Part shown: piece by piece, positions 17,951-44,732 of the stretch
Layout of the letters: each line of letters begins with the position of its first letter
Position numbering within the stretch: position 1 is the first letter of the stretch
Source of the DNA: Cyclobacteriaceae bacterium
Lineage (GTDB): Bacteria; Bacteroidota; Bacteroidia; Cytophagales; Cyclobacteriaceae
DNA: 64,000 nucleotides
Assembly: GCA_041689935.1 (NCBI GenBank)
Contig: JBDNFI010000012.1
Location: 5,483 to 69,482, forward strand
Direction of reading: 5' to 3'
The notes under the pieces: model-generated
Told to the model about the DNA's origin: nothing
Seen by the model: only the letters and a program-made list of their open reading frames with translations
Databases searched by the model: none
Translations under genes and position numbers: made by a program

Positions 17951-17963
17951 AGTAATAATAGTA

Positions 17964-19160: not shown

Positions 19161-19231
19161 AGCACATATTTTCTGATAAAGTAAAGTCTAATTTGTTCCC
19201 AAATAAAGGGATTTTATGTCTTGGGTTAAAA

Positions 19232-19843: not shown

Positions 19844-19857
19844 GTAGTTTAGTTGGA

Positions 19858-20139: not shown

Positions 20140-20200
20140 ATCAACTATTTATTGGCAAAATTAAAAATTATGAACAATTTGGCCGCTTTCTAATTCGCAA

Positions 20201-21649: not shown

Positions 21650-21675
21650 TGAAGCTCTGAACGGAATCAAGGCTT

Positions 21676-22891: not shown

Positions 22892-23067
22892 AAGAGATTA
22901 TTTTGAGTCAGAGGTCTAAGTGAAATTCGTTCTTTGTTATGGCTATGAACCCTTTATCTTATAATTACGGTTAATCGTTATCATTAAAAGTAAAATGGTC
23001 TTACTTTTGCAATTGGATTAAAATCCTGTGTTCGGTCTGGTAAATATACTGAACAATAATAGAGCAA

Positions 23068-23847: not shown

Positions 23848-24614
23848 TTATGAGTCCATCTGCTATAGATACCACCGAGAATGTAATAGAAATAGTAGGC
23901 CTGCAAAAAGCTTTTGGAGATTTGGAGATTCTCAGAGACATTAATCTTGACCTAATGAGAGGCGAAAACTTAGTGGTTTTGGGTAGGTCAGGGCAAGGTA
24001 AGTCTGTATTGATAAAATGTATTGTAGGCTTATTAATTGCCGATGCAGGTTCGATAAACGTACTGGGCAATGAGGTGACAAAGCTTAATACAAGGGAGTT
24101 AGATAAATTGCGACTAAAAATGGGATTCAATTTTCAGAATAGCGCTCTTTATGATTCAATGACTGTACGAGAAAATTTAGAATTTCCACTGATTCGAAAC
24201 CATATGCGCAAAACGCGGAAAGATTTAAATATAATGGTGGAAAAATCTCTTGAGGATGTAGGGATGCTGCACGCGATAGATCAGATGCCATCGGAATTAT
24301 CAGGTGGAATGCGAAAAAGAGTGGGTGTAGCAAGAACGCTTATTTTACAACCAGAAATAATGCTTTATGATGAACCTACTGCTGGCCTTGACCCCATTAC
24401 GGCACAGGAAATAAATGAGCTGATATTAGAAGTGCAGGAGCGTTTCCAAACTTCATCCATTATAATTACGCATGATATTACCTGCGCAAAAGTGACAGGA
24501 AATAGAATAAAAATACTTATTGACGGGCTATTTCAAGAGGAAGGCTCTTTCGAACATGTTTCCAAATCGACTGACCCGCGAATCAAACCGTTTTTCGATT
24601 ACAACGTTTTATAA
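23844..24614 (+). CDS. mlaF: MlaF-like ABC transporter ATP-binding protein
   Basis: Walker A GRSGQGKS, signature LSGGMRKR, Walker B IMLYDEPTAGLD. Confidence 0.9.
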   Translation: MIMSPSAIDTTENVIEIVGLQKAFGDLEILRDINLDLMRGENLVVLGRSGQGKSVLIKCIVGLLIADAGSINVLGNEVTKLNTRELDKLRLKMGFNFQNSALYDSMTVRENLEFPLIRNHMRKTRKDLNIMVEKSLEDVGMLHAIDQMPSELSGGMRKRVGVARTLILQPEIMLYDEPTAGLDPITAQEINELILEVQERFQTSSIIITHDITCAKVTGNRIKILIDGLFQEEGSFEHVSKSTDPRIKPFFDYNVL

Positions 24615-24615
24615 T

Positions 24616-25593
24616 ATGGCAAACGAAAATAAAAATAGAGTTAAGCTAGGCATTTTTGTGATAGTCGCTATTATCTTCATTACAATTGGAGTTTTCAGCA
24701 TAGGTAACCAAAGTAAGCTCTTCGTATCCACCTTTACCATACACACCAATTTCAATGATGCGGGAGGATTAATGGGAGGCAATAACGTCCTCTTCTCAGG
24801 AGTGAAAATAGGCACTGTCATACGTGTAAACATCGTTGCCGAGAATGAAGTGTCCGTGGAAATGGCCATAGAAGAACGCCTCCGAGAATTTATTAAAAAG
24901 GACTCAAATGCTAAAATTGGTTCCGATGGACTAATAGGTAATACCATCGTGGTAATTACAGGTGGCATATCTCAAAGTTCACCTGTAGAAGACGGAGATT
25001 TTCTACCAGCTATCCAAAGTGTCGATACAGAAGATATGATGGCTACTTTGCAAATGAATAACGAGAATTTGGTAGGCATTACCGAGCAATTGAGTGTGCT
25101 ACTCGCAGGGCTAAACCGAGGCGAAGGCACGTTAGGGAAATTATTTAAAGACACTTCTCTTTATACCAATCTTAACCAAACGATAGAAGGATTGGACCAA
25201 ATCCGCAGCAGTAGCCTAATAGTGACTAATGAATTGCAAATGCTGACAAAAAAACTCAATTCAGAGGATGGTTTAGTATACGCATTGTTTCAGGATGAAT
25301 CTATGGTGGTTAGTTTAAGAACAACTTTGGATAATCTTGAAAAGACTTCTACCCAAGCTGATGCTATTACAGCAGAAGTGAAATTGCTTACCGAAAAGTT
25401 GAATCAGAGTAATAGTGCGTTAGATTTGCTTACCAACGATCCGGAATTTGCCGAGTCCCTAAAATCCATGATGCAATATTTGGAATCCAGTTCTGTAAAA
25501 CTGGATGAAAATATGAAAGCCTTGCAGTCTAATTTTTTATTGAGAGGCTATTTCAAAAAGCAAGCTAAAGAAGAAGCAAAGAAGAATAATTGA
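24616..25593 (+). CDS. mlaD: MlaD/MCE-domain protein
   Basis: MANENKNRVKLGIFVIVAII anchor, an MCE beta-barrel (G.NV.FSGVKIGTV) and a long helical tail. The track ORF start at 24520 lies inside mlaF, so I chose the ATG at 24616, 2 nt after the mlaF stop. Confidence 0.85.
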   Translation: MANENKNRVKLGIFVIVAIIFITIGVFSIGNQSKLFVSTFTIHTNFNDAGGLMGGNNVLFSGVKIGTVIRVNIVAENEVSVEMAIEERLREFIKKDSNAKIGSDGLIGNTIVVITGGISQSSPVEDGDFLPAIQSVDTEDMMATLQMNNENLVGITEQLSVLLAGLNRGEGTLGKLFKDTSLYTNLNQTIEGLDQIRSSSLIVTNELQMLTKKLNSEDGLVYALFQDESMVVSLRTTLDNLEKTSTQADAITAEVKLLTEKLNQSNSALDLLTNDPEFAESLKSMMQYLESSSVKLDENMKALQSNFLLRGYFKKQAKEEAKKNN

Positions 25594-25635
25594 GTCCAAA
25601 ATAATAAGGAAGGTTAATCGTTTTAGCTAAAAAGT

Positions 25636-26319
25636 ATGATGAGAGTCCTATTCACCCTATGTCTAATTTTTTTATCAACTCAGCTGCTCCATGCACAAAA
25701 TAGTGAAAACAGGCCGTTGGCTGATTTTTTTGAAATAAGAGTAAATGATGGGATTGAAGTAGAGCTGATAAAATCGGAAAACCCCAGAATAGAAATAGAG
25801 ACCGAAGGAGTGAGTACCGATAAAGTAGTCACAGATTTATCTAGCGGGAGGTTGAGGATTCGCATGCGCATAGGAATATACCCAGGAGTGCGCGTAAAAT
25901 GTAAGGTTTATTACAACGAATTATCGTTGATACAGGCAATGGCCGCAGGAGTGATTACAAGCAATGAAACCTTCAAGGTAGACAGATTGAGTATTACAGC
26001 AAATGCGGGAGGCATTGTGAACTTGAATGTGGAAGCTCGTCGACTAATGTTAGAGGCCATAGCTGCGGGACAAATTTCTCTTACAGGAGAAGCAGAATTT
26101 ACCATGATAAATGCAGGCTCTGGAGGACAGATTGACGCTTTTAGTCTGATGGCCAAAGAAGCTGAAGTAAGAGCGAATAGTGGAGCTTCTGTAAACGTGA
26201 ATGTAATGGATAGCCTTAGTGGCAGGTCAAGCACAGGCGCACAAGTCAATTATAAAGGATCGCCCTCCAGCTTATTCGTAGAAACACAGCTTGGCGGTAC
26301 AATAAATCGAGCGTATTAG
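25636..26319 (+). CDS. Secreted DUF2807/head-GIN-domain (putative adhesin-like) protein
   Basis: It has a signal peptide and repetitive beta-helix-like units (ANAGGIVNL, AIAAGQISL, AGSGGQIDA, ANSGASVNV, TGAQVNY). Confidence 0.6.
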   Translation: MMRVLFTLCLIFLSTQLLHAQNSENRPLADFFEIRVNDGIEVELIKSENPRIEIETEGVSTDKVVTDLSSGRLRIRMRIGIYPGVRVKCKVYYNELSLIQAMAAGVITSNETFKVDRLSITANAGGIVNLNVEARRLMLEAIAAGQISLTGEAEFTMINAGSGGQIDAFSLMAKEAEVRANSGASVNVNVMDSLSGRSSTGAQVNYKGSPSSLFVETQLGGTINRAY

Positions 26320-26348
26320 TAAATTGATGTTTCTCAACCAATGAAACC

Positions 26349-26813
26349 ATGAAATCCCTAAAGTCAGCTGTTGTAGTTCTTCTCGTTTTATTTATCGCCA
26401 ATAGTACACAAGCGCAATCATCGGATAGCGAACAAGTAAAGGAATTAATAGAAAATCTGTTTGATGCCATGCGGGCAGCAGACGGAGTTGCATTTGGCAA
26501 ATGTTTTCATGAATCGGCTAAAATGATGACAGCACTAGTGGACGAGCAAGGGAATACTCGATTGGCAGAGGCGACTGTAAGTGGATTTGTAGAATCAATT
26601 TCCAAAGCAGAAGCAGGAACTCTTGATGAGCGGATTACAGCTTGGGATATAAAAGTAGATGGCCCAATGGCAATGGCTTGGACCAATTATGAATTCTACA
26701 GGGGAGATACTTTCAGCCACTGCGGAGTTAATAATTTCACCCTATATAAGGATAATGGTCAGTGGAAAATTGTCCAAATAATTGATACACGGAATAGGGA
26801 AGGGTGTAAATAA
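26349..26813 (+). CDS. Secreted NTF2/SnoaL-like fold protein
   Basis: It has a signal peptide ending ANSTQA. Size and pattern (W..Y.F......HCG.N.F.L.K.NG.WKIV) resemble the DUF4440/NTF2 superfamily. Confidence 0.5.
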   Translation: MKSLKSAVVVLLVLFIANSTQAQSSDSEQVKELIENLFDAMRAADGVAFGKCFHESAKMMTALVDEQGNTRLAEATVSGFVESISKAEAGTLDERITAWDIKVDGPMAMAWTNYEFYRGDTFSHCGVNNFTLYKDNGQWKIVQIIDTRNREGCK

Positions 26814-26826
26814 TGTGGTTATTTCC

Positions 26827-27573
26827 TTAGAAAAACCAAAGCTTAATTGCCAATGCAAATACGGTTACAATAAGGAAACGCTTTATCCATATATCTCCTT
26901 TATTGACAGACCATCTTGAGGCCACCCATCCTCCTCCCGCACTTCCCACGGCTAGGTTCAAGCCCCATATCCAGTTTACCTGATCTTCATAAATAAAAAC
27001 AGCTAAGGAGGAAAACGTAAAAAATAATGCAACAAATACCTTGGCGCTGTTTGTTTTTACCAAACTAAATCCATTGATCATGGTAAGTGCAGGAATCATT
27101 AAAAATCCAACTCCTGCTTGAATAAACCCGCCATAGATCCCTATAAAAAAGAAGACAATGATGCCGTAAGTCTGATGTTTAAAATCCATTTTCTCTACTT
27201 GGGTTTTAATGGATTTTCCTCCAAATACAGTCAGTAGAATTACAGCTACCATAATAACCGCCAGTATCCGGTTAAAGACTTCGCCTTCTATATTCACGGC
27301 GAAAAAAGCCCCTATAAGCCCACCAAAGAAGGAAGAAATACCAAGCCAAATACTGTATGGATAGGCGGAAACTCCCTTGCTTTGAAATCCAGCAACGCTA
27401 AAAATATTTTGGATAAAAACGGCTACTCGATTGGTAGCATTTGCAACCGTGGGTGGTAAGCCAAGAAAAATAAGTAATGGTAAGCTTAGTAAAGAGCCTC
27501 CTCCTGCAATGGTATTGAGAAAGCCAGACGCAAAGCCTACCACCAATACGAGTAAAATCTCACAAAGCTGCAT
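26827..27573 (-). CDS. TauE/SafE-family anion exporter
   Basis: 248 aa with about 8 TM helices. The N-terminal GxGGG-like motif is AGGGSLLSLPLLIFLGLPP..ANATN. Confidence 0.8.
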   Translation of the reverse strand: MQLCEILLVLVVGFASGFLNTIAGGGSLLSLPLLIFLGLPPTVANATNRVAVFIQNIFSVAGFQSKGVSAYPYSIWLGISSFFGGLIGAFFAVNIEGEVFNRILAVIMVAVILLTVFGGKSIKTQVEKMDFKHQTYGIIVFFFIGIYGGFIQAGVGFLMIPALTMINGFSLVKTNSAKVFVALFFTFSSLAVFIYEDQVNWIWGLNLAVGSAGGGWVASRWSVNKGDIWIKRFLIVTVFALAIKLWFF

Positions 27574-27576
27574 GGA

Positions 27577-28329
27577 TTAGTTACTTTGTAATTCTGCCAG
27601 GCTTTCTATTAGCAAGGTGCAGTATTTCTCTACATATTTGGCGATCTGTTCAATTTGGGACTCATCTATATTTGATCCCTCTAGGAGTGCCTTTCCATCT
27701 TCTAGTTTTTGGGCTAAGTCCGGCAAATCAAGCATATCAATATTAGCTTTATGCTTATGTCTGATCTCTCGCAATCGATCCAAGTTTTGCTCTACCAAAT
27801 ATTGATTGTATAGAGTCATTAGTTCTTTTAAAGAGCTTATATAGAGCTTTATAAGCTCTTTCATAAAGAAAGCATCTCCTTGGGTCAGAAGAATGATTTT
27901 TCTTTTAATTTTATCTTTTGGAATATGAATTTTATCGCTTGTAGGGTCTTGTAGGTTTATTTCATACGGTTTAGCATATTTGGAAATAATGGCAAATAGT
28001 TCCGGTGGGCTAAAGGGTTTAGTGATAAATTCATTCATGCCAGCGTTGGCAACTTTCTCTTTTATTTCACCAAAAGATGCCGCAGTGAGGGCAATGATAG
28101 GTATAGTCTCATAATGAGAATTTATTTGTCTGATGGATTTGGTAGCTTCAAAGCCATCCATTTCTGGCATTTGAAGATCCATCAATATTAAATCGTAAGA
28201 CTCTTTCTGAGATTTTTCCAAGGCAATTCGGCCATTATCAGCTAGGTCTGGATTGATTCCCCATTTTTGAAGATATTTAGTTGCTACTAATTGGTTGACT
28301 TCGTTGTCCTCCACTAAAAGCACCTTCAT
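27577..28329 (-). CDS. Response-regulator receiver domain fused to an HPt domain
   Basis: The REC domain is MKVLLVEDNEVNQ...DLILMDLQMPEMDG...KP. The C-terminal helical bundle carries the HPt-like histidine (IRHKHKANIDML). The start at 28329 is preferred over the track start at 28359. Confidence 0.8.
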   Translation of the reverse strand: MKVLLVEDNEVNQLVATKYLQKWGINPDLADNGRIALEKSQKESYDLILMDLQMPEMDGFEATKSIRQINSHYETIPIIALTAASFGEIKEKVANAGMNEFITKPFSPPELFAIISKYAKPYEINLQDPTSDKIHIPKDKIKRKIILLTQGDAFFMKELIKLYISSLKELMTLYNQYLVEQNLDRLREIRHKHKANIDMLDLPDLAQKLEDGKALLEGSNIDESQIEQIAKYVEKYCTLLIESLAELQSN

Positions 28330-28617
28330 TGAAAAATGTGAGTTGCCAGTCAAATTCAAAATAGTTTTTGATTTTATAATTGATTCAAAGCTTCACGCTA
28401 AGCAAAGGTGCAAGTTATCGTTTTTTCTATTGCTAGAAGGATACTGTTTTCAAATATTTAGAAATTAAGTGAAGTTTCTAAAACTCAATTTCAGATATAT
28501 TGTTATTACTCAATTAAAGCTCTAATATTGTGGTAGTTCATTTATAATTAAATTAAATTGTAAATTATAAATTTTAAAATTATTTTTATGCTTGAAAAGA
28601 AATTAAATTAAAATTTT

Positions 28618-29433
28618 GTGAAAAAAATTAATTTTGTAGTAATAATTAGCTTTTTTATTTTGTCAAACAATGCTTTTGGTCAGGAGAGCGTGCGAACCAC
28701 AATTTCTATTGGAACCAATCTTTCACTATCTACCATCAATGACAAGGGGATGAGTTCTATTCAGTATGATGGATTTATTCCTAGTATTCACTCGCGTTTG
28801 GAAAGGCGTAAAGTTAATTCTATATCAACGTTCTTTATTAGTGGTGAAAAAGGAATATTAACTCCAAAAGGGAATAAAAATGGAAAAATTGGAACTGCAA
28901 ATCAGAATGGTTTTACTGCAAATTATTCTTATCTGAGGAAAATAAATTTAACGCAAAAAAGATGGGCAATTTACACCGGGTTGCAACTTGGGACACTTCT
29001 GAGAAGCAGATTGCACAACAACTTAGTAAATAGTGCTAGAATTTACGAAAATATCAATCACATTGGTCCAGCAATATATGTTGAAAGGAAGATTAATTTG
29101 TTCCAAATGCCTTTAGATATTAGCGTCAGGATGAATGTACCAGTGTTTGCTGCAGTTATTCGACCCTCCGTAACTAATTTGGGAGACTTTCTCGGGAGAA
29201 GAGATGAAGAATTGAAAGACAGATTCCAAGAGCACGGTTTTACATCCTTTGGCAACCTATTAATGATTCAAAATGAAGTGAGTTTAAAATATCAATTGAA
29301 CAAATCGGATGCGCTTGCCATTAACTATTCTTGGCAATACCTTGATTATTCAAAGGTCAATAGCTTACAGTATGCCAGTCAGGTAGTTGGCGTTAGTTAT
29401 GTTAAAGGTCTTTGGTACCAAAAAAATGAATAA
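28618..29433 (+). CDS. Putative outer-membrane beta-barrel protein, function unknown
   Basis: GTG start, signal peptide ending NAFGQ, alternating-hydrophobicity strands and a C-terminal aromatic-rich end. Confidence 0.45.
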   Translation: MKKINFVVIISFFILSNNAFGQESVRTTISIGTNLSLSTINDKGMSSIQYDGFIPSIHSRLERRKVNSISTFFISGEKGILTPKGNKNGKIGTANQNGFTANYSYLRKINLTQKRWAIYTGLQLGTLLRSRLHNNLVNSARIYENINHIGPAIYVERKINLFQMPLDISVRMNVPVFAAVIRPSVTNLGDFLGRRDEELKDRFQEHGFTSFGNLLMIQNEVSLKYQLNKSDALAINYSWQYLDYSKVNSLQYASQVVGVSYVKGLWYQKNE

Positions 29434-30490
29434 TTTATTCCAAAATGTTATGAGTAGATTAATTAAAGTTTCTGGATTAAGAAAAATGAGGTTATTAGTA
29501 ATAATCTTAGTTTTGGGCACATTTACCAGCTGTGAACTCGTGTTGCTTGACGATACACAACCAAACAATCCAGCGGGAAATTTTGATGCCTTGTGGAGTA
29601 TTTTGAATGAGCGATATGCATTCTTTCAAATAAAAAATGTTGATTGGGATTTGACTTACGAAGAGTTCCGACCAAAAATTAATAATGAAATGAGAAATCC
29701 TGAACTCTTTGATGTTTGTTTCGAGATGTTAGAAACCCTTCGGGATGGACATATTTTTTTGAAAGGGGATGCGAACAGACGAGAATATACAGTAGTGCCA
29801 GTATTGGATCAAGGTGTGTTTAGTAAAAATGTGCTTTTCACTACTTACCTGAGAGAACAGACAGAAGAGATTGATGGTGCCATTTATAGAGATTTTAACG
29901 ATATTGGATACCTTTATTATGAGAGTTTTACGGATGATTTTACTCAAAGTGGCCTCGATAAACTCGTAGATAACCTAGCCAACAAAAGAGGATTAATAAT
30001 TGATTTAAGAGGAAACTCTGGAGGAAATCCAAAAAATGCTTTCAGACTTGCAGAGCGTTTGGTGCCTGAACGCAGGGAGGTTATCTACTCGCGAGAGAAA
30101 ACAGGGCCAGGAAGAGAAGATTTTTCTGAAAGAGAAATATTCAGTGTCGACCCAAATTCTAAGCGTTTCGATGGCCCTATTACCATCCTCACAAGTAGTA
30201 TCACCTTCAGTGCAGCTAATTTATTCGTGGCGATAATGCGAAATTTTGATCATGTAACACTTTCGGGTAGACCTACTGGTGGAGGTGGAGGAATTCCTGC
30301 CGTGTTTGAGCTTCCGAATGGCTGGACATTTTCCTATAGTGCATCTCTCATTACAATGCCCGATGGCTATGTGATTGAAAATGGATTCGATCCAGATTTT
30401 TTCGTTCAAATCAGTTCAGGGTTTGTACTGATAGGCAGGGATACCATTCTTGAATTTTCAATCAATAATTTGCGAAATAGGGCGAATTGA
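29426..30490 (+). CDS. S41-family (tail-specific protease-like) peptidase lipoprotein
   Basis: LIIDLRGNSGGNP box and Ser-nucleophile region TSSITFSAANLF. The lipobox is LVLGTFTSC. The start is ambiguous (29387, 29426, 29450 or 29486). Confidence 0.75.
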   Translation: MNNLFQNVMSRLIKVSGLRKMRLLVIILVLGTFTSCELVLLDDTQPNNPAGNFDALWSILNERYAFFQIKNVDWDLTYEEFRPKINNEMRNPELFDVCFEMLETLRDGHIFLKGDANRREYTVVPVLDQGVFSKNVLFTTYLREQTEEIDGAIYRDFNDIGYLYYESFTDDFTQSGLDKLVDNLANKRGLIIDLRGNSGGNPKNAFRLAERLVPERREVIYSREKTGPGREDFSEREIFSVDPNSKRFDGPITILTSSITFSAANLFVAIMRNFDHVTLSGRPTGGGGGIPAVFELPNGWTFSYSASLITMPDGYVIENGFDPDFFVQISSGFVLIGRDTILEFSINNLRNRAN

Positions 30491-38934: not shown

Positions 38935-39498
38935 TTAGACCCTGAGCAAACCTCGAAAACCTCTTGCACCATCATATGACTCTACTTCACTGTGAGAAAT
39001 AAAAACGGATCCATAGCGCCAATCGCCAATTATCGCACCACCTAGTTTGCGCATGGAGGGCGGTGTCTTAAGCCAACTCGAGGTTTTGGTATCCATCTTT
39101 CCAAGCTGCTGTATTTGATGGTATTGTGCAGCCGATAAAAGCTCAATACCCATTTCAGCTGCCATGCCTACAGCACTATGTTCAGGTTTTAATTTTTTTC
39201 TTGATCCCAAAGCTTCGTGATCATAACAAACACTTCGGCGGCCTGCGGGACTTTCGGCTGAGCAATCACAAAATACAAACTCATCAGATTCTTCGTAATA
39301 GGCTACCACATCTGGCTCGCCACCCGTATCTTCCATTTGGTACAGCGACCATAGCTTTTCGGGCTTCTGTTCAAGTTTGGCTTGTATATCAGCCCAATTC
39401 AGTTCTATATGGCGTTGCGGATTTTTTCGAAACCGCTCGGCTAAGGTTTTGAGGAGGGTATCTTTTTGATCGGAGGAAAGGCTGGTTTTAACGGGCAT
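38935..39498 (-). CDS. DUF4256-like protein, function unknown
   Basis: 187 aa. The pattern (GGEPDVV....DEFVFCDCSAESP.GRRS.CYD) resembles the DUF4256 family, from memory. Confidence 0.55.
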   Translation of the reverse strand: MPVKTSLSSDQKDTLLKTLAERFRKNPQRHIELNWADIQAKLEQKPEKLWSLYQMEDTGGEPDVVAYYEESDEFVFCDCSAESPAGRRSVCYDHEALGSRKKLKPEHSAVGMAAEMGIELLSAAQYHQIQQLGKMDTKTSSWLKTPPSMRKLGGAIIGDWRYGSVFISHSEVESYDGARGFRGLLRV

Positions 39499-39728: not shown

Positions 39729-41036
39729 TTATGCATTGAGGTCTAATAGAGTGGAGGCAATATCCTCCCGCAGTTTTACGGTAATTTCTACCTCTTTGGC
39801 AAAGCTCGCCCATTGATTCACGGTTTCATTAATTTCATCAATTATTTGTGATGCTTTTTTACATCGGATGGATTTCCCAATGACCATCAAATCTGTTTTA
39901 GTAATATTTTTCCTTTTACCATTTACGCTCAAAGCATGCTGACTTACCCATTCGCTACCTGGCCTGTAAGCATGGCAAATATCATAGGCAGGAGCCAACT
40001 CCCATTTGCTATTTTGTTTTAGTAGGAATGAGAAATTCTTGGTATGGTCGTCACAATTACGAGCGATTACATTAAACACCATTCTTCTAAACATCTGTTC
40101 GGCATCAGTATAGCTCAGTTTTAACTCACGCATACACTGAAAAAGCTGCTCATAACTAAAGCTATTTACGAGGTTGAAATCGAAATGCTTTAAAGCGCAA
40201 AAGGTTTGAACATGGTATTTTGCCTCGCCACCTGCCCGGTCGAAACGCTTAGTCATAAAATGAGCCCGACCATTTTCTTCCAAAAGGCGGGAGGGCATCA
40301 TCTCTATGCCACATTTTGTTGCCATGTTGAAGTAGGCCATTTCTACTCTTCCATACCCTTTGCTTGAGCCTAATTGCACATCGCTTACGCCATCTAGTTT
40401 AATCAGCCAATGCTCGTAACCCTTAGGGGCTTTGGTTTGGCCTGATTTTACTTCTCCAGTTTTTTCGTTCCACGCTATTACTGCCTTTGGACGAGCACCA
40501 CCGGCAGAAGTGCCAATTTTCAAAATATCCAAAACCGCTTCTTTTTCTTCTTTATTTAGGTTGGTGGTAAATGCCTCCCGTAGGTTGAGCATTTTTTGGG
40601 CGGTAGCAACCAAGCTATCAATTTCTATGGAGAATGAGCGCTTGGTTTCGGTGAACATAACTGGTTCAAATTCCAATGCCCCCATACCACGAGTGCCGAT
40701 GAAACACAGCATTTCCACCGGATTCATACTGTCTTGTGGGCGACCTTGCTGTGCCAGCCAAAGGTTAATCATTTGATTCCCGTATTTATCAGGCAATGCA
40801 TCGGCTAATAGACCGGGTAAGCCTTTGAAGGTGTCGTTTTCTGGGTCTCTATCTTTTCGCAATTCTGGAAATGAAAATTGATTCCTATTATCGGAAATAG
40901 GCATTTTGAGTGGCGACAAATCCCAGCCTAATTGCCTGAATTTGGGGTCATATTCAAAAGTAGCATAGCCTGTTTCTGGAGCCCAGGCAATAGCGCCAAC
41001 TAATTCACCCCATATTTTTACTTCTGCTACTTGCAT
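39729..41036 (-). CDS. hipA: Type II toxin HipA (Ser/Thr kinase)
   Basis: 435 aa with the N-terminal coupling domain (VWG..VG.I). Kinase core: GGARPKA loop and catalytic DDHTKNFSF. Confidence 0.92.
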   Translation of the reverse strand: MQVAEVKIWGELVGAIAWAPETGYATFEYDPKFRQLGWDLSPLKMPISDNRNQFSFPELRKDRDPENDTFKGLPGLLADALPDKYGNQMINLWLAQQGRPQDSMNPVEMLCFIGTRGMGALEFEPVMFTETKRSFSIEIDSLVATAQKMLNLREAFTTNLNKEEKEAVLDILKIGTSAGGARPKAVIAWNEKTGEVKSGQTKAPKGYEHWLIKLDGVSDVQLGSSKGYGRVEMAYFNMATKCGIEMMPSRLLEENGRAHFMTKRFDRAGGEAKYHVQTFCALKHFDFNLVNSFSYEQLFQCMRELKLSYTDAEQMFRRMVFNVIARNCDDHTKNFSFLLKQNSKWELAPAYDICHAYRPGSEWVSQHALSVNGKRKNITKTDLMVIGKSIRCKKASQIIDEINETVNQWASFAKEVEITVKLREDIASTLLDLNA

Positions 41037-41039
41037 TGC

Positions 41040-41405
41040 CTACCAATCTATTTCTTCAGAGTCCTTGGTGTTTTTTGTTGATTTGCCTCTTGCTCTATGG
41101 CGTTTATTTTTTTGCAGTTTCGCCAAAGCCAGAGGGCTTAGGGTTTCTTTTACTTCAAATAGGCTAAGCACCTGCAATTGATCCAAAATCCTCAATACCT
41201 GTATAAGCGTAGTCAAAGTTACTGTTTCGCCTCTCTCCAGCAAACTCAGCGTAGACCGACTGATGCCGGCTGCTGCTGACAATTCATCCTGAGTTTTATT
41301 CTGCTCCATCCGGTGATGCCTTACAAATAGCCCAACGTATTCGGTAAGCACTTTATCGCTTATAGAATGCATTTTGTTGAATGATTTATCAGTCATAAAT
41401 GGCAT
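41040..41405 (-). CDS. hipB: HipB-like XRE-family antitoxin / transcriptional repressor
   Basis: The HTH is KTQDELSAAAGISRSTLSLLERGE. It lies 3 nt upstream of hipA. The real start may be the internal ATG at 41372. Confidence 0.85.
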   Translation of the reverse strand: MPFMTDKSFNKMHSISDKVLTEYVGLFVRHHRMEQNKTQDELSAAAGISRSTLSLLERGETVTLTTLIQVLRILDQLQVLSLFEVKETLSPLALAKLQKNKRHRARGKSTKNTKDSEEIDW

Positions 41406-41741: not shown

Positions 41742-42599
41742 TCAATATTTCTGTTTGCTTGGGATTACGCCTCTAATTCCACCCGTTGGATCATCTACGT
41801 CACCGCCATATCGCGGAATTAAGTGGATATGAACATGGTCAATAGTTTGTCCAGCTTTACTTCCGATGTTTATGCCAATATTAAATCCATCAGGTTCAAA
41901 TCGTATTTTTAAAAGCTCCTTGACTTTATTGAGAACAAACCAGCAAGCAGATTGCTCTTTAAATGTTAAATCAAAATAATTGGCACAATGCTTTTTGTGG
42001 ATAATTAATGTGTGCCCTTTATTCACTGGATATTTATCAAATATGGCATATACCATCGCAGATTCAAGAATTAGCTCGCTTTCTGATTCTGGATTACAAA
42101 ATGGGCACCCTATATTTTCGACTCGACTAATTTGATTAAAATGTCTGTACTCATAGATTTCACAATTATCATTTCTGTAAAAGGATTTTGAATTTAAAAT
42201 CACATTACACTGATAAGTTTGCTTTTGATGAATTTTATGAGTTCTAAAACCTTCAAATTGCAGATCCCTCCTAACTGCGATATAAACTTTTCCAGTTGGT
42301 TTTACTAATTGAGATAGCTCCATCAAAACAATAGCTTGCTCCTCTGGTAGGAGTACATTCAATACGTAAAAGCAAAGTATTGTATCAAACTTTCTTTTTG
42401 GGTATTCGGGAAAATAATGCTTGTCGTACCCAGTAATATCAATTCCTTTTTCTTTCATCAACTCAACGTCTTTTCCAAAACCACACCCGAAATCCAATAC
42501 TTCTCCTTTTAGCAAATTCTTATTTAAAAGGAGTTTTGCTGGGAACGAAAGAGCATGTCTTTCTTTAGCGGTGAGGTGATTATAATTATTGAATCCCAT
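41742..42599 (-). CDS. Fusion protein: class I SAM-dependent methyltransferase (N) + histidine-triad (HIT) nucleotide hydrolase/transferase (C)
   Basis: MTase motif I is VLDFGCGFGKD and the post-I motif is ITGYD. The HIT domain starts at CPFCNP..., continues with PVNKGHTLIIHKKH and has the triad IDHVHIHLIPR. Its ATG shares a base with the upstream stop (TAATG). Confidence 0.8.
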   Translation of the reverse strand: MGFNNYNHLTAKERHALSFPAKLLLNKNLLKGEVLDFGCGFGKDVELMKEKGIDITGYDKHYFPEYPKRKFDTILCFYVLNVLLPEEQAIVLMELSQLVKPTGKVYIAVRRDLQFEGFRTHKIHQKQTYQCNVILNSKSFYRNDNCEIYEYRHFNQISRVENIGCPFCNPESESELILESAMVYAIFDKYPVNKGHTLIIHKKHCANYFDLTFKEQSACWFVLNKVKELLKIRFEPDGFNIGINIGSKAGQTIDHVHIHLIPRYGGDVDDPTGGIRGVIPSKQKY

Positions 42600-43645
42600 T
42601 ATTTCATAAATTCAAAGCCATTGTTTGATGCAATTGTGATTAATGGTTGTACGTTTTCAAGAAATTTTTCTTTGGAAAAGCCCTGATTTTGATCTGGGAA
42701 GATTGTTAAGTAGTCTTGAAGTATTGTATTATTTGGGCTATTGTGCTTTACAATATCAAATGCAATTTTTTGTAAATTGAAAAATGAATCAAAATACAAA
42801 TCAAGAGGTGGGAGTTTGTTACCCTTTGAGCTATTGTATGATTTGTCTGCAGGAATTAAATTCCAAATTAAATCGTGGGAGACAAAACTATAAGGAATGA
42901 AATGTTCGAGAGCATAATTTCCCTTACAGAGATCTTTTCCTGTATAGATGCATTTAACTGATCCAATTTCTTTAATAACTAAATCCCAAAATTGAGATTT
43001 TTGCCGATTTAAGCTATTCCTTTTAGCGGCCTTAATCAATTTATTTGGTATGTCAGGTACATTAGGGTTTTTTGATTGAAGAAACAAGGCAAGATTCCAA
43101 TAACAAAAACCTTTAATTACTCCTGTTGCTTTTTTTAAATATTTAATCCATTGAGGGTTAATAATAATGTGATCGTCAAACAGAGCATATAAGCACCAGT
43201 TATTAAAATCCTCAGACTCTGAATAAATTCGTTTCGATCTTTGAAAGTCAGTTTCACCTTTCAATTTCGGAAACCAAGGCGTTAGAAACCAATGCGGAAC
43301 ATTGTTATTATAATGTTTAAGTATCTTTAAGGTGTCACTATTTGTTGTCCTTGATAATTTTTGGAAAACCAATGGTTGTCTTTCATCAATGGAAATTTGT
43401 TCAATTTCTTTTATATCTCGTATTGAATCTTGCTTTCCAAAGGAAACCTGAAAGTAGTTTACCGTATGCCATGCATTAGAAATCATTCTTGCAAATAAAT
43501 CCTTTTTCGCAATTTTTGATTGTCCCATTTCAATTTCTTCTAAAATGGATATTAGCCAATAAAACTTATATGTTGCAGATGTCTTATTAAAACAAGCAGC
43601 AAGAATGTTTATTGGCAACTCTTTTGAATCAGGTAAGTTGCTCAT
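42599..43645 (-). CDS. HNH (His-Me finger) nuclease-domain protein with an unassigned N-terminal region of about 250 aa
   Basis: The C-terminal motif is ALEHFIPYSFVSHDLIWNLIPADKSYNSSKGNK (H...H..WNL.P....N..K). The ORF is open to 43693. The ATG at 43645 lies one nt after the upstream TGA. Confidence 0.75.
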   Translation of the reverse strand: MSNLPDSKELPINILAACFNKTSATYKFYWLISILEEIEMGQSKIAKKDLFARMISNAWHTVNYFQVSFGKQDSIRDIKEIEQISIDERQPLVFQKLSRTTNSDTLKILKHYNNNVPHWFLTPWFPKLKGETDFQRSKRIYSESEDFNNWCLYALFDDHIIINPQWIKYLKKATGVIKGFCYWNLALFLQSKNPNVPDIPNKLIKAAKRNSLNRQKSQFWDLVIKEIGSVKCIYTGKDLCKGNYALEHFIPYSFVSHDLIWNLIPADKSYNSSKGNKLPPLDLYFDSFFNLQKIAFDIVKHNSPNNTILQDYLTIFPDQNQGFSKEKFLENVQPLITIASNNGFEFMK

Positions 43646-43646
43646 T

Positions 43647-44504
43647 TCAAACTCTGATTTCATTCGTCTCATATTCCTTAAGTGTTTTGCCACTTTTAAG
43701 TTTCCATTCTGTTAGACCATTTGCATTTCGCCCTAGAACAATAGAGGCTGCAGTAGAGGGGCTGCTAAAAATGTAGTCCTCAGGAAAATCTAAAAATTCC
43801 TTTCTATCAATTAGTACGCCTTCGTCAATTAGTTTTTGGCGAAATGTTACAAAATTTTGTGTCATCGAAACCACAATGGAACCCGCAGCTTTTGAACCTT
43901 TAAATACGACAAACCCATCAGAACTTGGCTGTCCTTTGCCATCAGATCCTCGTGCAGATTTAATGAAAAATGTATCTTGCTGTTGTTTAGGTCTAAATTC
44001 TCTTTTTTCATCAAATACTTTATGGCCTAAAGTGTTAACCAACATTTTGATGTATTCTATAAACTCTTCCATCTCAGCTCTATCAGGTTCTGAAATTGAC
44101 GATTGAGTTGGAATTATAGAATTATCAACTTTATATCGATTGGCAATTTTCGCGATGTCGTGGAGTCTATTTTCTAAGTATTTGATATGAGCCTTATTTA
44201 AGTTCTCATCTTTGCTGATAAATACTATTGCTTCGTTCCAAAAATCTTTCTGAGTTAGTTGTTGATTAAGGCGTTTCAATATGGATTCAGCTTCACCAAT
44301 ATATACTTGATCTTTTCCTTCATCATCCTTCCCAAATAACAAGTAAACCCCAGTACTGGTCAGGTCATCTCGGTCTACGCAGTCCTTAATTTTTATTCTT
44401 GGAATTTTATAAGCTTTGCCTGACCAGTTAGAAAGTTCACAGCTCATCCTTCCATTTGGATCTCCATCAATGAGAAATATCTTTATTGTTTTACCGAATT
44501 TCAT
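43647..44504 (-). CDS. GIY-YIG nuclease-domain protein with a DUF4357-like C-terminal domain
   Basis: The GIY-YIG core is GVYLLFGK-x9[13 protein letters not shown]...NEA. The C-terminal block is [23 protein letters not shown]. The ATG at 44504 is preferred to the TTG at 44525. Confidence 0.75.
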
Positions 44505-44610
44505 TTTGGAAATGTTGTCTACCAATAAAACTACCTCTTTTCACTCAAAAAATAAAATAGCAGAAAGCCATAATTGTAGGAGTTCCCAAGCTCAACGCCT
44601 AAAAAAGCAA

Positions 44611-44640
44611 AAAACCCTACTAAAGCTAGCAGGGTTTTTT
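44611..44640. terminator. Bidirectional rho-independent terminator downstream of tRNA-Ser
   Basis: The sequence is aaaaccctacta-aagc-tagcagggtttttt: an 8-bp stem with one mismatch, flanked by A6 and T6. Confidence 0.75.
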
Positions 44641-44647
44641 GTTGATG

Positions 44648-44732
44648 CAGAGGAGGAGGGATTCGAACCCCCGGTACCTTGCGGTACAACGGTTTTCAAG
44701 ACCGCCGCATTCGACCACTCTGCCACTCCTCT
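44648..44732 (-). tRNA. tRNA-Ser (anticodon UGA)
   Basis: The reverse complement reads AGAGGAG-TG-GCA-GAGTGGTCGAA-TGC-G-GCGGT-CTTGAAA-ACCGT-long variable arm (GTACCGCAAGGTAC)-GGGGGTTCGAATCCCTC-CTCCTCT-G. It is 85 nt, has a class II variable arm and the anticodon loop CU-UGA-AA. CCA is not encoded. Confidence 0.9.

What the first reader, a model, noticed from the sequence alone, without database searches (positions are those of the whole stretch)
41742..42599. Unusual domain fusion: SAM-methyltransferase + HIT nucleotide hydrolase/transferase
Residues 1 to about 150 look like a minimal class I methyltransferase: motif I VLDFGCGFG, an acidic residue in ITGYD, and FYVLNVL after motif II. No nucleic-acid target-recognition domain or DNA-MTase catalytic tetrapeptide is visible. 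Residues from about 165 to 285 are a complete HIT domain: CPFCNP, KGHTLIIHKKH and IDHVHIHLIPR. HIT enzymes (Hint, Fhit, aprataxin, DcpS, GalT branches) all act at the alpha-phosphate of a nucleotide conjugate. A covalent fusion therefore implies that one substrate is both methylated and (de)nucleotidylated. Candidates include a nucleotide signal, a capped or adenylated nucleic-acid end, or a nucleotide-linked small molecule. In the operon context it could be the immunity or modification arm, or the signal-handling arm, of a nuclease-based system. From memory, the N-terminal segment (ERHALSFPAKLLL...VLDFGCGFGKD) resembles methyltransferases annotated as DNA-phosphorothioation-associated. I cannot verify that here.
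Basis: partly seen in the sequence, partly recalled or inferred. Interest (0 to 1): 0.7.

Follow-up and report, generated by a model that had tools for sequence, protein, structure and literature searches.

The report
Methyltransferase–HIT partner of phosphorothioate-linked HNH nuclease
The methyltransferase–HIT fusion is real and widespread, and it is the fixed partner of an HNH DNA-cutting enzyme in an uncharacterised two-gene module that comes from bacterial DNA phosphorothioate (sulfur-backbone) defence gene clusters.

Summary
Window 41742-42599 (-) is one uninterrupted 285-aa ORF with an intact class I SAM-methyltransferase half and an intact HIT half.

- **Breadth:** more than 3,000 database proteins match, in at least 571 species. 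RefSeq already names it [quoted passage not shown]. No function is published.
- **Partner:** in 65 of 69 full-length loci an HNH nuclease gene lies immediately upstream, usually with overlapping stop and start (TAATG in the window). Nothing else is conserved. HIT-only versions pair with the same HNH.
- **Phosphorothioate link:**
  - The pair, or the HNH alone, is repeatedly embedded in Ssp, BREX-4 or Dnd phosphorothioation clusters.
  - Many "orphan" pairs keep a scar of the first 60-70 codons of sspB.
  - One locus swaps the partner for a sulfur-binding-domain HNH.
  - The MT core is homologous to the phosphorothioation-associated TIGR04096 methyltransferase, which clusters with the same HNH family in cyanobacteria.
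- **Window copy:** an orphan in a low-GC islet beside tRNA-Ser, with no writer genes in 64 kb.

Most likely this is the nucleotide or DNA-end (thio)phosphate-processing partner of a phosphorothioate-lineage restriction-like nuclease. The chemistry is inferred, not shown.

The parts
41742..42599 (-). MT-HIT gene (285 aa), the finding itself
   Evidence: It is a single ORF. Pfam finds HIT and Methyltransf_23. More than 3,000 full-length homologues exist.
42135..42599 (-). Class I SAM-methyltransferase half (residues ~1-155). Motif I VLDFGCGFG lies at nt 42474-42500.
   Evidence: Methyltransf_23 scores 46.6 bits. TIGR04096 matches its N-terminal part at 59.5 bits. Identity to the Synechocystis TIGR04096 protein is 34% at E=2e-13. 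The fold search returns only small-molecule or tRNA-type class I methyltransferases and no DNA methyltransferase.
41745..42122 (-). HIT half (residues ~160-285), including the subfamily-specific C-terminal tail PRYGGDVDDPTGGIRGVIPSKQKY. The His triad DHVHIHL lies at nt 41823-41837.
   Evidence: HIT scores 78.9 bits. The closest solved proteins are bacterial HIT proteins and Ap4A phosphorylase, at 64-70 bits. The tail is conserved in standalone, fused and viral members.
42599..43693 (-). Partner gene: helical/winged-helix N-terminal region plus an HNH_4 nuclease. The ORF is 364 aa from the GTG. The likely true start is the ATG at 43672 or 43645, giving 357 or 348 aa.
   Evidence: HNH_4 covers residues 248-295 at 37.2 bits. 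The family is conserved immediately upstream of MT-HIT in 64 of 69 loci. E256/H257, N271 and N280 are invariant.
42809..42952 (-). HNH (beta-beta-alpha-Me) catalytic core of the partner
   Evidence: Pfam PF13395 matches. The core aligns to Cas9 HNH domains.
42597..42601 (-). TAATG overlap: the HNH stop codon (42599-42601) shares one base with the MT-HIT start codon (42597-42599)
   Evidence: This was read from the sequence. Overlapping stop and start occur in 56 of the 65 loci tallied.
43647..44525 (-). Neighbouring PDC-S14 / DUF4357 candidate single-gene defence protein. It lies in the same gene array but is not part of the conserved unit.
   Evidence: PADLOC PDC-S14 scores 399 bits. It is present next to the pair only in L003 and L095.
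44608..44732 (-). tRNA-Ser(TGA) at 44647-44732 and its terminator-like hairpin at 44608-44641. Together they form the upstream edge of the low-GC islet.
   Evidence: ARAGORN calls the tRNA. The hairpin comes from the terminator scan. GC is 0.31-0.33 over the pair against 0.40-0.45 in the flanks.
39729..41405 (-). HipB (41040-41405) and HipA (39729-41036) toxin-antitoxin pair downstream. It is an islet neighbour, not part of the unit.
   Evidence: Pfam finds HipA_C at 180.5 bits and HTH_3. The pair is absent from the other loci.

Best explanation
**What it is.** The ORF encodes a real bifunctional protein: a minimal class I SAM methyltransferase fused to a catalytically intact HIT nucleotide hydrolase/transferase. 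It is the translationally coupled partner of a nuclease made of a helical/winged-helix region and an HNH_4 domain. The two genes form a self-contained, horizontally mobile module.

**Where it comes from.** The module originates from DNA-phosphorothioation (PT) immunity clusters of the Ssp, BREX type 4 and Dnd kinds, and in a minority of genomes it still sits inside them. The window carries an orphan copy, with no PT-writer genes in 64 kb, in a small low-GC defence islet next to tRNA-Ser.

**Proposed working.**
1. The HNH protein binds and cuts DNA.
2. The HIT active site attacks the alpha-(thio)phosphate of a nucleotide conjugate. The attack goes through the conserved His257 nucleophile. The conjugate is either produced by the cutting or controls it. 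The candidate I favour is a 5'-thiophosphorylated or 5'-nucleotidylated DNA end, or the corresponding (d)NMPS-type nucleotide.
3. The SAM-methyltransferase half modifies the same ligand or the leaving group. This step is optional in evolution.

**Status of each part.**
- Shown: the domain integrity, the obligate HNH partnership, the autonomy of the pair, and the phosphorothioate-cluster ancestry.
- Inferred: a conflict or restriction role, at about 0.7.
- Speculative: the specific thiophosphate or end-processing chemistry, at about 0.25.
For: **Domains and conservation**
- Both halves pass Pfam thresholds and all catalytic residues are invariant.
- The HIT half is closest to bacterial HIT proteins, Ap4A phosphorylase and Fhit.

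**Partnership with the HNH gene**
- An HNH gene lies directly upstream in 65 of 69 full-length loci, overlapping the MT-HIT start in 56.
- All-against-all clustering of ORFs within 8 kb finds only these two families conserved: 80 and 70 of 80 loci.
- HIT-only proteins pair with the same HNH, including on plasmids of three genera. In Polaromonas the gene order is reversed.
- Near-identical MT-HITs pair about 50:50 with two very divergent HNH N-terminal types. L003 shares the window's flanks but carries the other type.

**Link to phosphorothioation**
- L067: cysteine desulfurase (scoring as NifS/IscS and DndA, all below cutoff), SspB (299 bits), HNH, MT-HIT-REase, SspD (315), PbeA (984), PbeC.
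- L051 and L105: SspB, truncated SspC (716 and 472 bits), HNH, MT-HIT, then further genes, PglZ and BrxL.
- L102: SspB, an SspC fragment, SspD, HNH, MT-HIT.
- L013, L010 and L061 have SspD adjacent. L036 has a cysteine desulfurase adjacent.
- N-terminal SspB remnants (about aa 1-70) occur in 8 otherwise unrelated loci. They lie within about 370 nt upstream of the HNH in six of them (abutting its start in L005 and L013), about 200 nt upstream in L004, and about 3.8 kb away in L030.
- The HNH alone sits beside complete Ssp clusters (L098, L100) and beside Dnd genes (L101).
- In L027 the partner is replaced by a protein with a sulfur-binding domain (8h0l, E=7e-8) plus an HNH.
- Synechocystis pSYSM and a Leptolyngbya plasmid combine the same HNH family with SspB, SspC, cysteine desulfurase and a TIGR04096 methyltransferase. 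The MT core of that methyltransferase aligns to the window protein at E=2e-13.

**Other support**
- The background frequency of sspBCD clusters is about 3% of genomes (PMC12914056), so this adjacency is far above chance.
- The HIT subfamily is also fused to other DNases: PLD plus SF2 helicase, and DUF559/MTES_1575.
- There is biochemical precedent: HINT1 and HINT2 convert (d)NMPS to (d)NMP plus H2S (PMC8775712).
- The islet context is shown.
Against: - There is no experimental datum for any member.
- The window has no SspA, SspB, SspC, SspD or TIGR04095 match. Most pairs are orphans, so PT cannot be strictly required.
- Where MT-HIT is present, the neighbouring SspC is truncated or missing. 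This could mean the pair merely invaded or outlived these clusters rather than working with them.
- The usual HNH N-terminal region shows no detectable similarity to sulfur-binding domains or to any solved fold.
- The HIT subfamily is common in phages with no HNH nearby (0 of 80 loci), in a nucleotide-metabolism context. It may therefore have a more general nucleotide substrate.
- Some relatives have lost MT motif I or the His triad.
- The AlphaFold model of the fusion was poor (pLDDT 56), so no shared pocket could be examined.
- The locus sample is biased toward close relatives of the window protein.
Confidence: 0.55

Rival explanations
1. Nucleotide-gated switch or antidote with no sulfur chemistry. 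The HIT half continuously destroys an ApnA-type or other nucleotide ligand, or senses it, and this ligand licenses the HNH nuclease. Infection or stress raises the ligand or blocks HIT and unleashes the nuclease. This would be functionally analogous to the NTPase domain of SspE or GmrSD, or to the proposed role of ThsC.
For: - The two genes are tightly translationally coupled.
- The pair survives after loss of the PT writers, as an addictive or self-sufficient unit would.
- HIT is fused in cis to unrelated nucleases, as a regulatory domain would be.
- The HIT half is closest to the Ap4A phosphorylase, Fhit and bacterial HIT branch.
- There is a PADLOC ThsC2 hit at 34.8 bits, and PMC8565338 proposes a regulatory role for ThsC.
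- In SspE, GTP hydrolysis couples PT recognition to cleavage. This rests on the abstract of PMC13251355, seen.
Against: - No signal-synthesising enzyme is conserved nearby.
- This reading does not explain the methyltransferase half or its specific kinship with TIGR04096.
- The HNH alone coexists with complete Ssp or Dnd clusters without any HIT.
Confidence: 0.22
2. Accessory or proof-reader of PT writing. The PP-loop enzyme SspD is thought to activate DNA phosphate by adenylylation. HIT would then act like aprataxin and remove AMP from abortive adenylylated DNA at SspB or HNH nicks. The pair would belong to the modification arm, not the restriction arm.
For: - The pair sits inside the modification operon, between sspB/sspC and sspD or right after sspD.
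- HIT enzymes include the DNA 5'-deadenylase aprataxin (established knowledge).
- In one locus an RNA 2'-phosphotransferase (Tpt1/KptA) gene lies between the HNH and MT-HIT genes, which hints at nucleic-acid end chemistry.
Against: - Most pairs, including the window's, have no writer genes yet are intact and 74-81% conserved.
- The canonical ssp operons examined have no HIT gene in the flanking stretches I saw.
- The aprataxin zinc-finger and FHA features were not found.
Confidence: 0.1
3. A self-contained restriction-modification-like pair. The MT half methylates host nucleic acid as the self mark and the HNH cuts unmarked DNA.
For: - Gene order and coupling resemble R-M or toxin-antitoxin pairs.
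- The pair is retained after loss of the PT writers.
- Conserved basic residues (R110, R111, R119, H121, K122) follow the MT core.
Against: - There is no DNA-methyltransferase catalytic motif or target-recognition domain (direct reading).
- Fold neighbours are small-molecule or tRNA methyltransferases only.
- HIT-only partners lack the methyltransferase altogether.
- Some members have a degenerate motif I.
Confidence: 0.07
4. A selfish, homing-type HNH cassette carrying MT-HIT as a passenger. It inserts into and disrupts ssp operons and has no dedicated host function. Alternatively, the adjacency is incidental and MT-HIT is a general nucleotide-pool enzyme.
For: - SspC is truncated at different points right before the cassette: profile position 730 or 624 of 1054.
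- sspB scars with similar breakpoints travel with the cassette.
- Synechocystis pSYSM has a LAGLIDADG endonuclease in the same sspC region.
- The HIT subfamily occurs alone in phages next to nucleotide-metabolism genes.
Against: - The pair is found in many unrelated insertion contexts without ssp target genes.
- The HNH proteins are large, carry diversifying N-terminal DNA-binding regions, and also occur as intact neighbours of undisrupted Ssp clusters.
- Strong purifying selection acts on both genes.
Confidence: 0.06

Closest known systems
TIGR04096 'DNA phosphorothioation-associated putative methyltransferase' (for example Synechocystis PCC 6803 pSYSM WP_011153563, 690 aa)
   Same: The MT core is homologous, including the unusual helix before motif I: 34% identity and E=2e-13, and 59.5 bits to the model. 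The gene neighbourhood partners are the same: this HNH family, SspB, SspC and cysteine desulfurase.
   Different: The window protein is less than half the length and lacks the long N- and C-terminal regions. It carries a HIT domain instead and scores far below the family cutoff of 150 bits. The function of TIGR04096 is itself unknown, and no literature on it was found.
SspE of SspABCD-SspE (DUF262 NTPase plus DUF1524 HNH-like nuclease), and the related GmrSD type IV enzymes
   Same: Both are nucleases associated with Ssp phosphorothioation clusters, combined with a nucleotide-hydrolysing module. Both occur next to sspBCD.
   Different: The domain families are unrelated: HNH_4 and HIT here, against DUF1524 and DUF262. 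Here the two activities are on two polypeptides and there is an extra SAM methyltransferase. There is no PADLOC Ssp effector match. Dependence on PT was not tested.
ScoMcrA / SBD-HNH type IV phosphorothioate-dependent restriction endonucleases
   Same: Both have a DNA-reader region followed by an HNH. In locus L027 an SBD-HNH protein (8h0l, E=7e-8) actually replaces the usual partner next to MT-HIT.
   Different: The window's HNH has no detectable SBD or SRA domain. The characterised SBD-HNH enzymes work alone, with no HIT or methyltransferase partner.
HIT superfamily hydrolases and transferases: bacterial Hit (3imi, 1y23), Ap4A phosphorylase Rv2613c (3wo5), Fhit, Hint1, aprataxin
   Same: The window protein has the full HxHxHxx motif, the CxxC motif and the GQT motif. 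Sequence scores to bacterial HIT proteins and Ap4A phosphorylase are 64-70 bits. Hint1 and Hint2 are known to desulfurate nucleoside 5'-phosphorothioates (PMC8775712).
   Different: It has a distinct conserved C-terminal tail (GDxxxPxGGxRxVIPxKxxY). It is fused to a methyltransferase and is obligately linked to a nuclease gene. Its substrate is unknown.
ThsC (HIT protein) of Thoeris type II, a PADLOC candidate
   Same: Both are HIT-family accessories of a defence system. The PADLOC ThsC2 model matches at 34.8 bits.
   Different: None of the five neighbouring genes scanned matched ThsA or ThsB. The match is only generic HIT similarity.

Membership tests
HIT superfamily (PF01230) | Score above the Pfam gathering threshold | tested here: met
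   The score is 78.9 bits against a cutoff of 21.5, over residues 170-264.
HIT superfamily (PF01230) | His triad HxHxHxx with the nucleophilic middle His | tested here: met
   The window has D-H255-V-H257-I-H259-L-I. All three His residues are invariant in 35 sequences.
Class I SAM-dependent methyltransferase | Rossmann motif I (D/E)xGxGxG, an acidic residue after beta-2, and a Pfam score above threshold | tested here: met
   The motif reads VLDFGCGFG and D59 is invariant. Methyltransf_23 scores 46.6 bits against a cutoff of 27. The modelled MT part matches class I methyltransferase folds.
TIGR04096 (DNA phosphorothioation-associated putative methyltransferase) | Whole-protein score at or above the NCBIfam cutoff of 150 bits, with full-length coverage of the 478-position model | tested here: not met
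   The score is 59.5 bits and only model positions 5-82 are covered.
TIGR04096 (DNA phosphorothioation-associated putative methyltransferase) | Location next to DNA phosphorothioation genes | tested here: inconclusive
   This is not met in the window, which has no Ssp, Dnd or Pbe match in 64 kb. It is met for relatives in L010, L013, L036, L051, L061, L067, L085, L102 and L105.
DNA methyltransferases (N6A, N4C, C5) | Catalytic (D/N/S)PP(Y/F/W) or PC...ENV motifs, plus a target-recognition domain | tested here: not met
   No such motif is found on direct reading of the 285 residues. There are no DNA methyltransferase Pfam or NCBIfam hits, and no DNA methyltransferase appears among the fold matches listed.
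Aprataxin, GalT and DcpS branches of HIT | Branch-specific extra domains: the aprataxin zinc finger and FHA, tandem GalT half-domains, or the DcpS N-terminal swap domain | tested here: not met
   Only the HIT core is matched. DcpS_C at 38.5 bits overlaps the HIT hit and is weaker. GalT C-terminal hits appear only weakly, in relatives. Sequence scores rank bacterial HIT and Ap4A phosphorylase above Fhit, and Fhit above Hint1.
SspABCD-SspE/SspFGH or Dnd/Pbe systems (as a component) | Match to a known component model | tested here: not met
   Neither MT-HIT nor its HNH partner matches any Ssp, Dnd or Pbe model in PADLOC. Their neighbours in other loci do match.
SspABCD-SspE/SspFGH or Dnd/Pbe systems (as a component) | PT-dependent or PT-sensing activity | not testable with these tools
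   This needs biochemistry or genetics.
Thoeris type II (ThsC) | Co-location with ThsA and ThsB | tested here: not met
   The ThsC2 model matches at 34.8 bits, but none of the five neighbouring genes scanned matches ThsA or ThsB.
Toxin-antitoxin / restriction-modification-like addiction pair | Toxicity of the nuclease relieved by the partner | not testable with these tools
   Only indirect evidence exists: translational coupling, and retention of both genes after loss of the neighbouring genes.

The most novel reading that the evidence does not exclude
MT-HIT may be a dedicated phosphorothioate-processing enzyme, an "eraser" or "sanitiser" of the DNA sulfur mark.

1. The HNH partner cuts at or near a PT linkage.
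2. The cut leaves a 5'-thiophosphate DNA end, or degradation releases (d)NMPS. Chemically this is the known Hint1 substrate class.
3. The SAM-methyltransferase S-methylates the sulfur to make a good leaving group.
4. The HIT histidine displaces it, releasing CH3SH or H2S and restoring a normal 5'-phosphate.

This would let nuclease-resistant PT DNA be fully degraded. It would also keep thiophosphate nucleotides out of the cell's own DNA, or actively remove PT marks. It would be the first enzyme known to process natural DNA phosphorothioate, and it would suggest a candidate role for the long-unexplained TIGR04096 methyltransferase family.
Probability: 0.15. Interest if true: 0.85.

Novelty: new variant of a known kind. 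Interest (0 to 1): 0.6.

Why it matters
- **A missing piece of PT immunity.** Phosphorothioate-based immunity (Dnd, Ssp, BREX-4) is an active field. Its known effector arms are DndFGH, SspE, SspFGH, PbeABCD and SBD-HNH. Nobody knows how PT marks are turned over or how PT nucleotides are handled. This work defines a widespread, uncharacterised two-gene module: thousands of proteins in Bacteroidota, Ignavibacteriota, Chloroflexota, Cyanobacteria and Proteobacteria.
- **A link between three things.** The module connects a new PT-cluster HNH nuclease family, a HIT nucleotide enzyme, and the unexplained "phosphorothioation-associated methyltransferase" fold.
- **A testable chemical hypothesis.** HIT enzymes are the only enzymes I know to cleave P-S bonds in nucleoside phosphorothioates (this exclusivity rests on my own knowledge; the activity itself is documented in PMC8775712).
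- **A tractable model.** Synechocystis PCC 6803 plasmid pSYSM carries the HNH family together with TIGR04096.
- **If the PT link is only historical.** The pair is still a candidate stand-alone defence or addiction module that is absent from PADLOC 2023.

Tried and rejected
- **Structure of the fusion.** AlphaFold2 with a 35-sequence alignment gave pLDDT 56, with the HIT half below 50. No shared pocket or interface could be examined. Foldseek on this model returned only generic class I methyltransferases.
- **Structure of the HNH partner.** The model had pLDDT 75. Foldseek against the PDB gave no hit with E below 0.1. Sequence and profile searches against the PDB found only the HNH core. The idea that its N-terminus is a sulfur-binding domain is therefore not supported.
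- **HNH N-terminus as the missing SspC C-terminus.** A maximum-sensitivity hmmsearch against three full-length SspC proteins found nothing. Rejected.
- **HIT-PLD-helicase fusions as PbeA/TIGR04095 orthologues.** There is only generic helicase similarity, at 20-29% identity and about 50 bits. Rejected.
- **PDC-S14 or HipBA as parts of the system.** They are absent from the other loci. Rejected.
- **An att-site repeat of the tRNA-Ser 3' end** to delimit an island: none was found.
- **The fusion on plasmids or in phages.** No full-length MT-HIT was found in PLSDB, INPHARED or IMG/VR, only the HIT half.
- **Literature.** Searches on HIT plus HNH, defence, phosphorothioate, DUF4007 and TIGR04096 found no description of this pair.
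- **Genome-wide co-occurrence** of orphan pairs with ssp or dnd genes elsewhere in the same genomes could not be computed, because there was a single genome-collection scan and only 16-21 kb was held per locus.
- **One look-up** (P0463) was not on record.
Full report
**1.

Window 41742..42599 on the minus strand is one ATG-initiated ORF of 285 aa. Pfam places a Methyltransf_23 domain at residues 23-110 (46.6 bits, cutoff 27). It places a HIT domain at residues 170-264 (78.9 bits, cutoff 21.5).

- VLDFGCGFG at nt 42474-42500
- ITGYD
- CPFC
- KGHTLIIHKKH
- DHVHIHLIPR, with the His triad at nt 41823-41837

No DNA-methyltransferase catalytic motif is present.

The fusion is not a frameshift artefact. 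The identical protein occurs in independent assemblies. More than 3,000 database proteins match, and the best 120 are all 285-290 aa at 74-81% identity. In a 35-sequence alignment every SAM-binding and HIT catalytic residue is invariant, and so is much of the region between the domains. RefSeq already calls such proteins [quoted passage not shown]. So the architecture is catalogued, although I found no functional study.

**2. It is the fixed partner of an HNH nuclease.**

In the window, the gene directly upstream (42599..43693, minus strand) encodes a helical N-terminal region plus an HNH_4 domain. Its TAA stop shares a base with the MT-HIT ATG, giving TAATG at 42597-42601.

A scan of one genome per species found relatives in at least 571 species. 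They belong to Bacteroidota, Ignavibacteriota/Kapabacteria, Chloroflexota and Cyanobacteria. Findings from the 80 loci fetched:
- 65 of the 69 full-length ones have an HNH gene immediately upstream on the same strand.
- Stop and start overlap in 56 of them. The modal overlaps are 13, 4 and 8 nt.
- The four exceptions are all cyanobacterial.
- All-against-all clustering of ORFs within 8 kb shows that only these two families are conserved, in 80 and 70 of 80 loci.
- The window's other neighbours (PDC-S14/DUF4357, HipBA, DUF4256) are not conserved.

Six further loci and three plasmids carry a HIT-only protein of 121-144 aa next to the same HNH family. The plasmids are from Hymenobacter, Persicobacter and Polaromonas, and in Polaromonas the gene order is reversed. 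The minimal unit is therefore HNH plus HIT, and the methyltransferase is a frequent add-on.

Nearly identical MT-HIT proteins are paired about equally with two very divergent HNH N-terminal types. Locus L003 shares the window's flanks (PDC-S14, DUF4256) but carries the other HNH type. This is the partner or specificity shuffling typical of conflict systems.

**3. The module belongs to the phosphorothioate (PT) world.**

Several independent lines point the same way.

(a) Pairs embedded in PT clusters:
- L067 reads: cysteine desulfurase (scoring as NifS/IscS and DndA, all below cutoff), SspB/DUF4007 (299 bits), HNH, MT-HIT fused to a DUF559/MTES_1575 REase, SspD (315 bits), PbeA/TIGR04095 (984 bits), PbeC.
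- L051 (Chloroflexota) and the unrelated L105 both read: SspB, C-terminally truncated SspC, HNH, MT-HIT, an unknown protein of about 1,290 aa, PglZ, BrxL.
- L102 reads: SspB, an SspC fragment, SspD, HNH, MT-HIT.
- L013, L010 and L061 have SspD adjacent. L036 has a cysteine desulfurase adjacent. L085 has SspB and an SspC fragment upstream.

(b) Eight otherwise unrelated "orphan" loci retain only the first 33-114 residues of SspB. The remnant lies within about 370 nt upstream of the HNH in six of them, abutting its start in L005 and L013. It lies about 200 nt upstream in L004 and about 3.8 kb away in L030. In L010 it is followed by SspD. This is a deletion scar of an ancestral sspB-sspC-(sspD)-HNH-MT-HIT operon in which the writer genes were lost and the pair was kept.

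(c) A divergent clade of the same HNH family is full-length homologous to the window's protein (E=1.7e-53). It lies beside complete SspABCD on a Hymenobacter yonginensis plasmid. In the Spirosoma radiotolerans chromosome it lies beside a cysteine desulfurase, SspB and a full-length SspC. In a third contig it lies beside DndB, DndE and "DNA_S_mod_dnd_assoc_4". In these three cases there is no HIT. Of the seven contexts sampled for this clade, four have PT genes and five have MT-HIT.

(d) In L027 the usual partner is displaced by an HNH protein whose N-terminus matches a solved sulfur-binding domain (8h0l, E=7e-8). That domain is the PT reader of type IV enzymes.

(e) In Synechocystis PCC 6803 pSYSM and in a Leptolyngbya plasmid, the same HNH family clusters with SspB, SspC, a cysteine desulfurase and a RefSeq-annotated [quoted passage not shown] (TIGR04096). 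The window's MT core aligns to that protein at 34% identity, E=2e-13, including the distinctive helix before motif I. This agrees with the sub-threshold TIGR04096 hit of 59.5 bits.

Published identities support the gene names: DUF4007 is SspB, the PAPS reductase is SspD and the BrxC-like ATPase is SspC (PMC12839542, PMC12914056). sspBCD clusters occur in about 3% of genomes (PMC12914056). The adjacency seen here is therefore far beyond chance. I did not do a formal test, and the loci are biased to relatives of the window protein.

**4. The window copy is an orphan.**

No SspA, SspB, SspC, SspD or PbeA homologue is detectable anywhere in the 64 kb. The pair lies in a low-GC stretch (0.31-0.33, against 0.40-0.45 in the flanks). 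This stretch begins just after tRNA-Ser(TGA) and its hairpin. It also contains a PDC-S14 candidate defence gene upstream and a HipBA pair downstream. No att repeat was found.

**5. What the HIT subfamily does elsewhere.**

An exhaustive profile-free search of 1.84 billion representatives finds the HIT half as a distinct subfamily. The match runs through its conserved tail, PRYxGDxxxPxGGxRxVIPxKxxY. The subfamily occurs in four forms:
- standalone, at about 130 aa;
- fused to the methyltransferase;
- fused N-terminally to PLD-nuclease plus SF2-helicase proteins;
- in L067, fused to a Vsr-like REase.

It is therefore linked to three unrelated DNase types.

In viral contigs the fusion is absent, but the HIT-only form is common (at least 489 stretches). 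There it is never next to the HNH family (0 of 80 loci). Instead it lies in a recurrent block that includes GTP cyclohydrolase I (E=6e-28) and a weakly QueE-like radical-SAM protein. These loci are probably one broad phage lineage.

Some divergent cellular relatives have lost MT motif I or the His triad.

**6. Mechanism: what is shown and what is inferred.**

Shown:
- The MT and HIT active-site motifs are intact.
- The genes are tightly coupled with an HNH nuclease whose catalytic residues are invariant.
- The pair is autonomous and mobile.
- It descends from PT clusters.

Inferred with moderate confidence: the pair is a restriction-like or effector module of the PT lineage that can function without a resident PT writer.

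Speculative: the chemistry. HIT enzymes attack the alpha-phosphate of a nucleotide conjugate through a covalent His-NMP intermediate (established knowledge). HINT1 and HINT2 also cleave the P-S bond of (d)NMPS, giving (d)NMP plus H2S (PMC8775712). An HNH cut at a PT linkage would leave the sulfur on the 5' end. I therefore favour a role in processing 5'-thiophosphate DNA ends or thiophosphate nucleotides, or 5'-nucleotidylated DNA ends. The small-molecule-type methyltransferase would act on the same ligand or on the sulfur leaving group. Its fold neighbours are Trm9, NodS, DhpI, TehB and the like, and none is a DNA methyltransferase.

Against a strict PT role:
- Most pairs are orphans.
- Where MT-HIT is present, SspC is truncated or missing.
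- The phage HIT context points to general nucleotide metabolism.

**7. Rival explanations.**
- A nucleotide-gated switch or antidote, analogous to the NTPase of SspE/GmrSD or to ThsC.
- An aprataxin-like proof-reader of adenylylated intermediates of PT writing.
- A self-contained methylation-based restriction-modification pair.
- A selfish HNH cassette, or incidental adjacency.

Their evidence and the results that would refute them are given in the structured fields.

**8. Comparison with what is known.**

The protein meets the defining features of the HIT superfamily and of class I SAM methyltransferases. It does not meet TIGR04096 membership on score or coverage. It is not a DNA methyltransferase. 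It lacks the extra domains of the aprataxin, GalT and DcpS branches. Neither it nor its HNH partner matches any Ssp, Dnd, Pbe or other PADLOC system model. The only hits are a generic ThsC2 match for the HIT half and weak Cas9-HNH and PDC-M01B matches for the HNH core.

Functionally, the nearest analogues are SspE (nuclease plus nucleotide hydrolase in Ssp systems) and the SBD-HNH type IV enzymes. Six literature searches and the three papers I searched for a mention contain no description of an HNH+HIT or MT-HIT module. The nearest thing is a passing remark that "a methyltransferase" sits next to sspB in a cyanobacterium and may be independent (PMC12914056).

**9. Verdict.**

The nuclease-system arm and the phosphorothioation-methyltransferase kinship are right. 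The rarity of the fusion and the "one substrate, two reactions" inference are not established.

I rate this a new variant of a known kind: a PT-lineage nuclease effector module with an unprecedented HIT/methyltransferase partner. It is of moderate-to-high interest because it offers a concrete, testable entry into how cells process phosphorothioate DNA or nucleotides, and into the function of TIGR04096.

Noticed in passing
window 43647-44525 (-): The gene directly upstream of the HNH is a strong match to the PADLOC candidate single-gene defence system PDC-S14 (399 bits). It has a C-terminal DUF4357 domain. Its stop codon is packed against the likely HNH start, or overlaps it. It co-occurs with the pair only in the window's own lineage and in L003.
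   Followed up: partly
window 39729-41405 (-) and 38935-39498 (-): A HipB/HipA toxin-antitoxin pair (HipA_C at 180 bits) and a DUF4256 gene lie just downstream of MT-HIT, inside the same low-GC stretch. DUF4256 also flanks the pair in L003 and L029.
   Followed up: partly
window 41997-41999 (residue 201 of MT-HIT): The window protein has His where at least 90% of relatives have Pro: IIHKKH against the consensus IIPKKH in the HIT strand preceding the conserved His204. One relative has Ala. The significance is unknown.
   Followed up: no
L106:11100-11648 (Fibrella sp. contig): An RNA 2'-phosphotransferase (Tpt1/KptA, PF01885) gene is inserted between the HNH and MT-HIT genes, and a HIT fragment lies nearby. 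From my own knowledge, not checked here, Tpt1 enzymes can cap 5'-phosphate nucleic-acid ends with ADP-ribose. This hints at end chemistry.
   Followed up: no
L111-L190 (IMG/VR contigs), e.g. L180:6001-7286, L159:6001-8227: The standalone HIT subfamily, with the same C-terminal tail, is common in viral contigs. It lies next to GTP cyclohydrolase I (confirmed, E=6e-28) and a weakly QueE-like radical-SAM gene. This may be a 7-deazaguanine or nucleotide-metabolism block. The first His of the triad is often replaced (YPHVHL). The HNH family is absent from these loci.
   Followed up: partly
L051:8891-12805 and L105:13740-17594: A conserved protein of 1,284-1,304 aa has no Pfam or PADLOC match. It sits between MT-HIT and PglZ-BrxL in two unrelated BREX-4/Ssp-like loci. 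No PAPS reductase was detected in the stretches held.
   Followed up: partly
L107 (Synechocystis PCC 6803 pSYSM, record 17880-30168) and L108 (Leptolyngbya plasmid): Cyanobacterial clusters combine SspB, SspC, the HNH family, a cysteine desulfurase and a 666-690 aa TIGR04096 methyltransferase. No PAPS reductase (SspD) is annotated in the Leptolyngbya stretch seen. In pSYSM, SspC is cut short to 563 aa next to a LAGLIDADG endonuclease gene.
   Followed up: partly
L027, L048, L064, L065, L068, L073, L085-L094: Wadjet-like genes (MksE, DUF3584, DUF7281, i.e. JetB/C/D-like) lie immediately downstream of the pair in several lineages. A RecQ+UvrD-type helicase of about 1,600 aa (DpdF-like, 214 bits) follows it in L015, L018, L035, L052 and L056. 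L085 also carries a PDC-M11A candidate gene (708 bits). This is the typical look of a defence island.
   Followed up: partly
P0136, P0143, P0141, P0146 (50%-identity cluster representatives): Divergent relatives of the fusion have a degenerate SAM-binding motif I (P0136, P0143), a lost His triad (P0143), or a truncated or degenerate HIT half (P0141, P0146). Catalysis by each half is therefore not universally retained.
   Followed up: no
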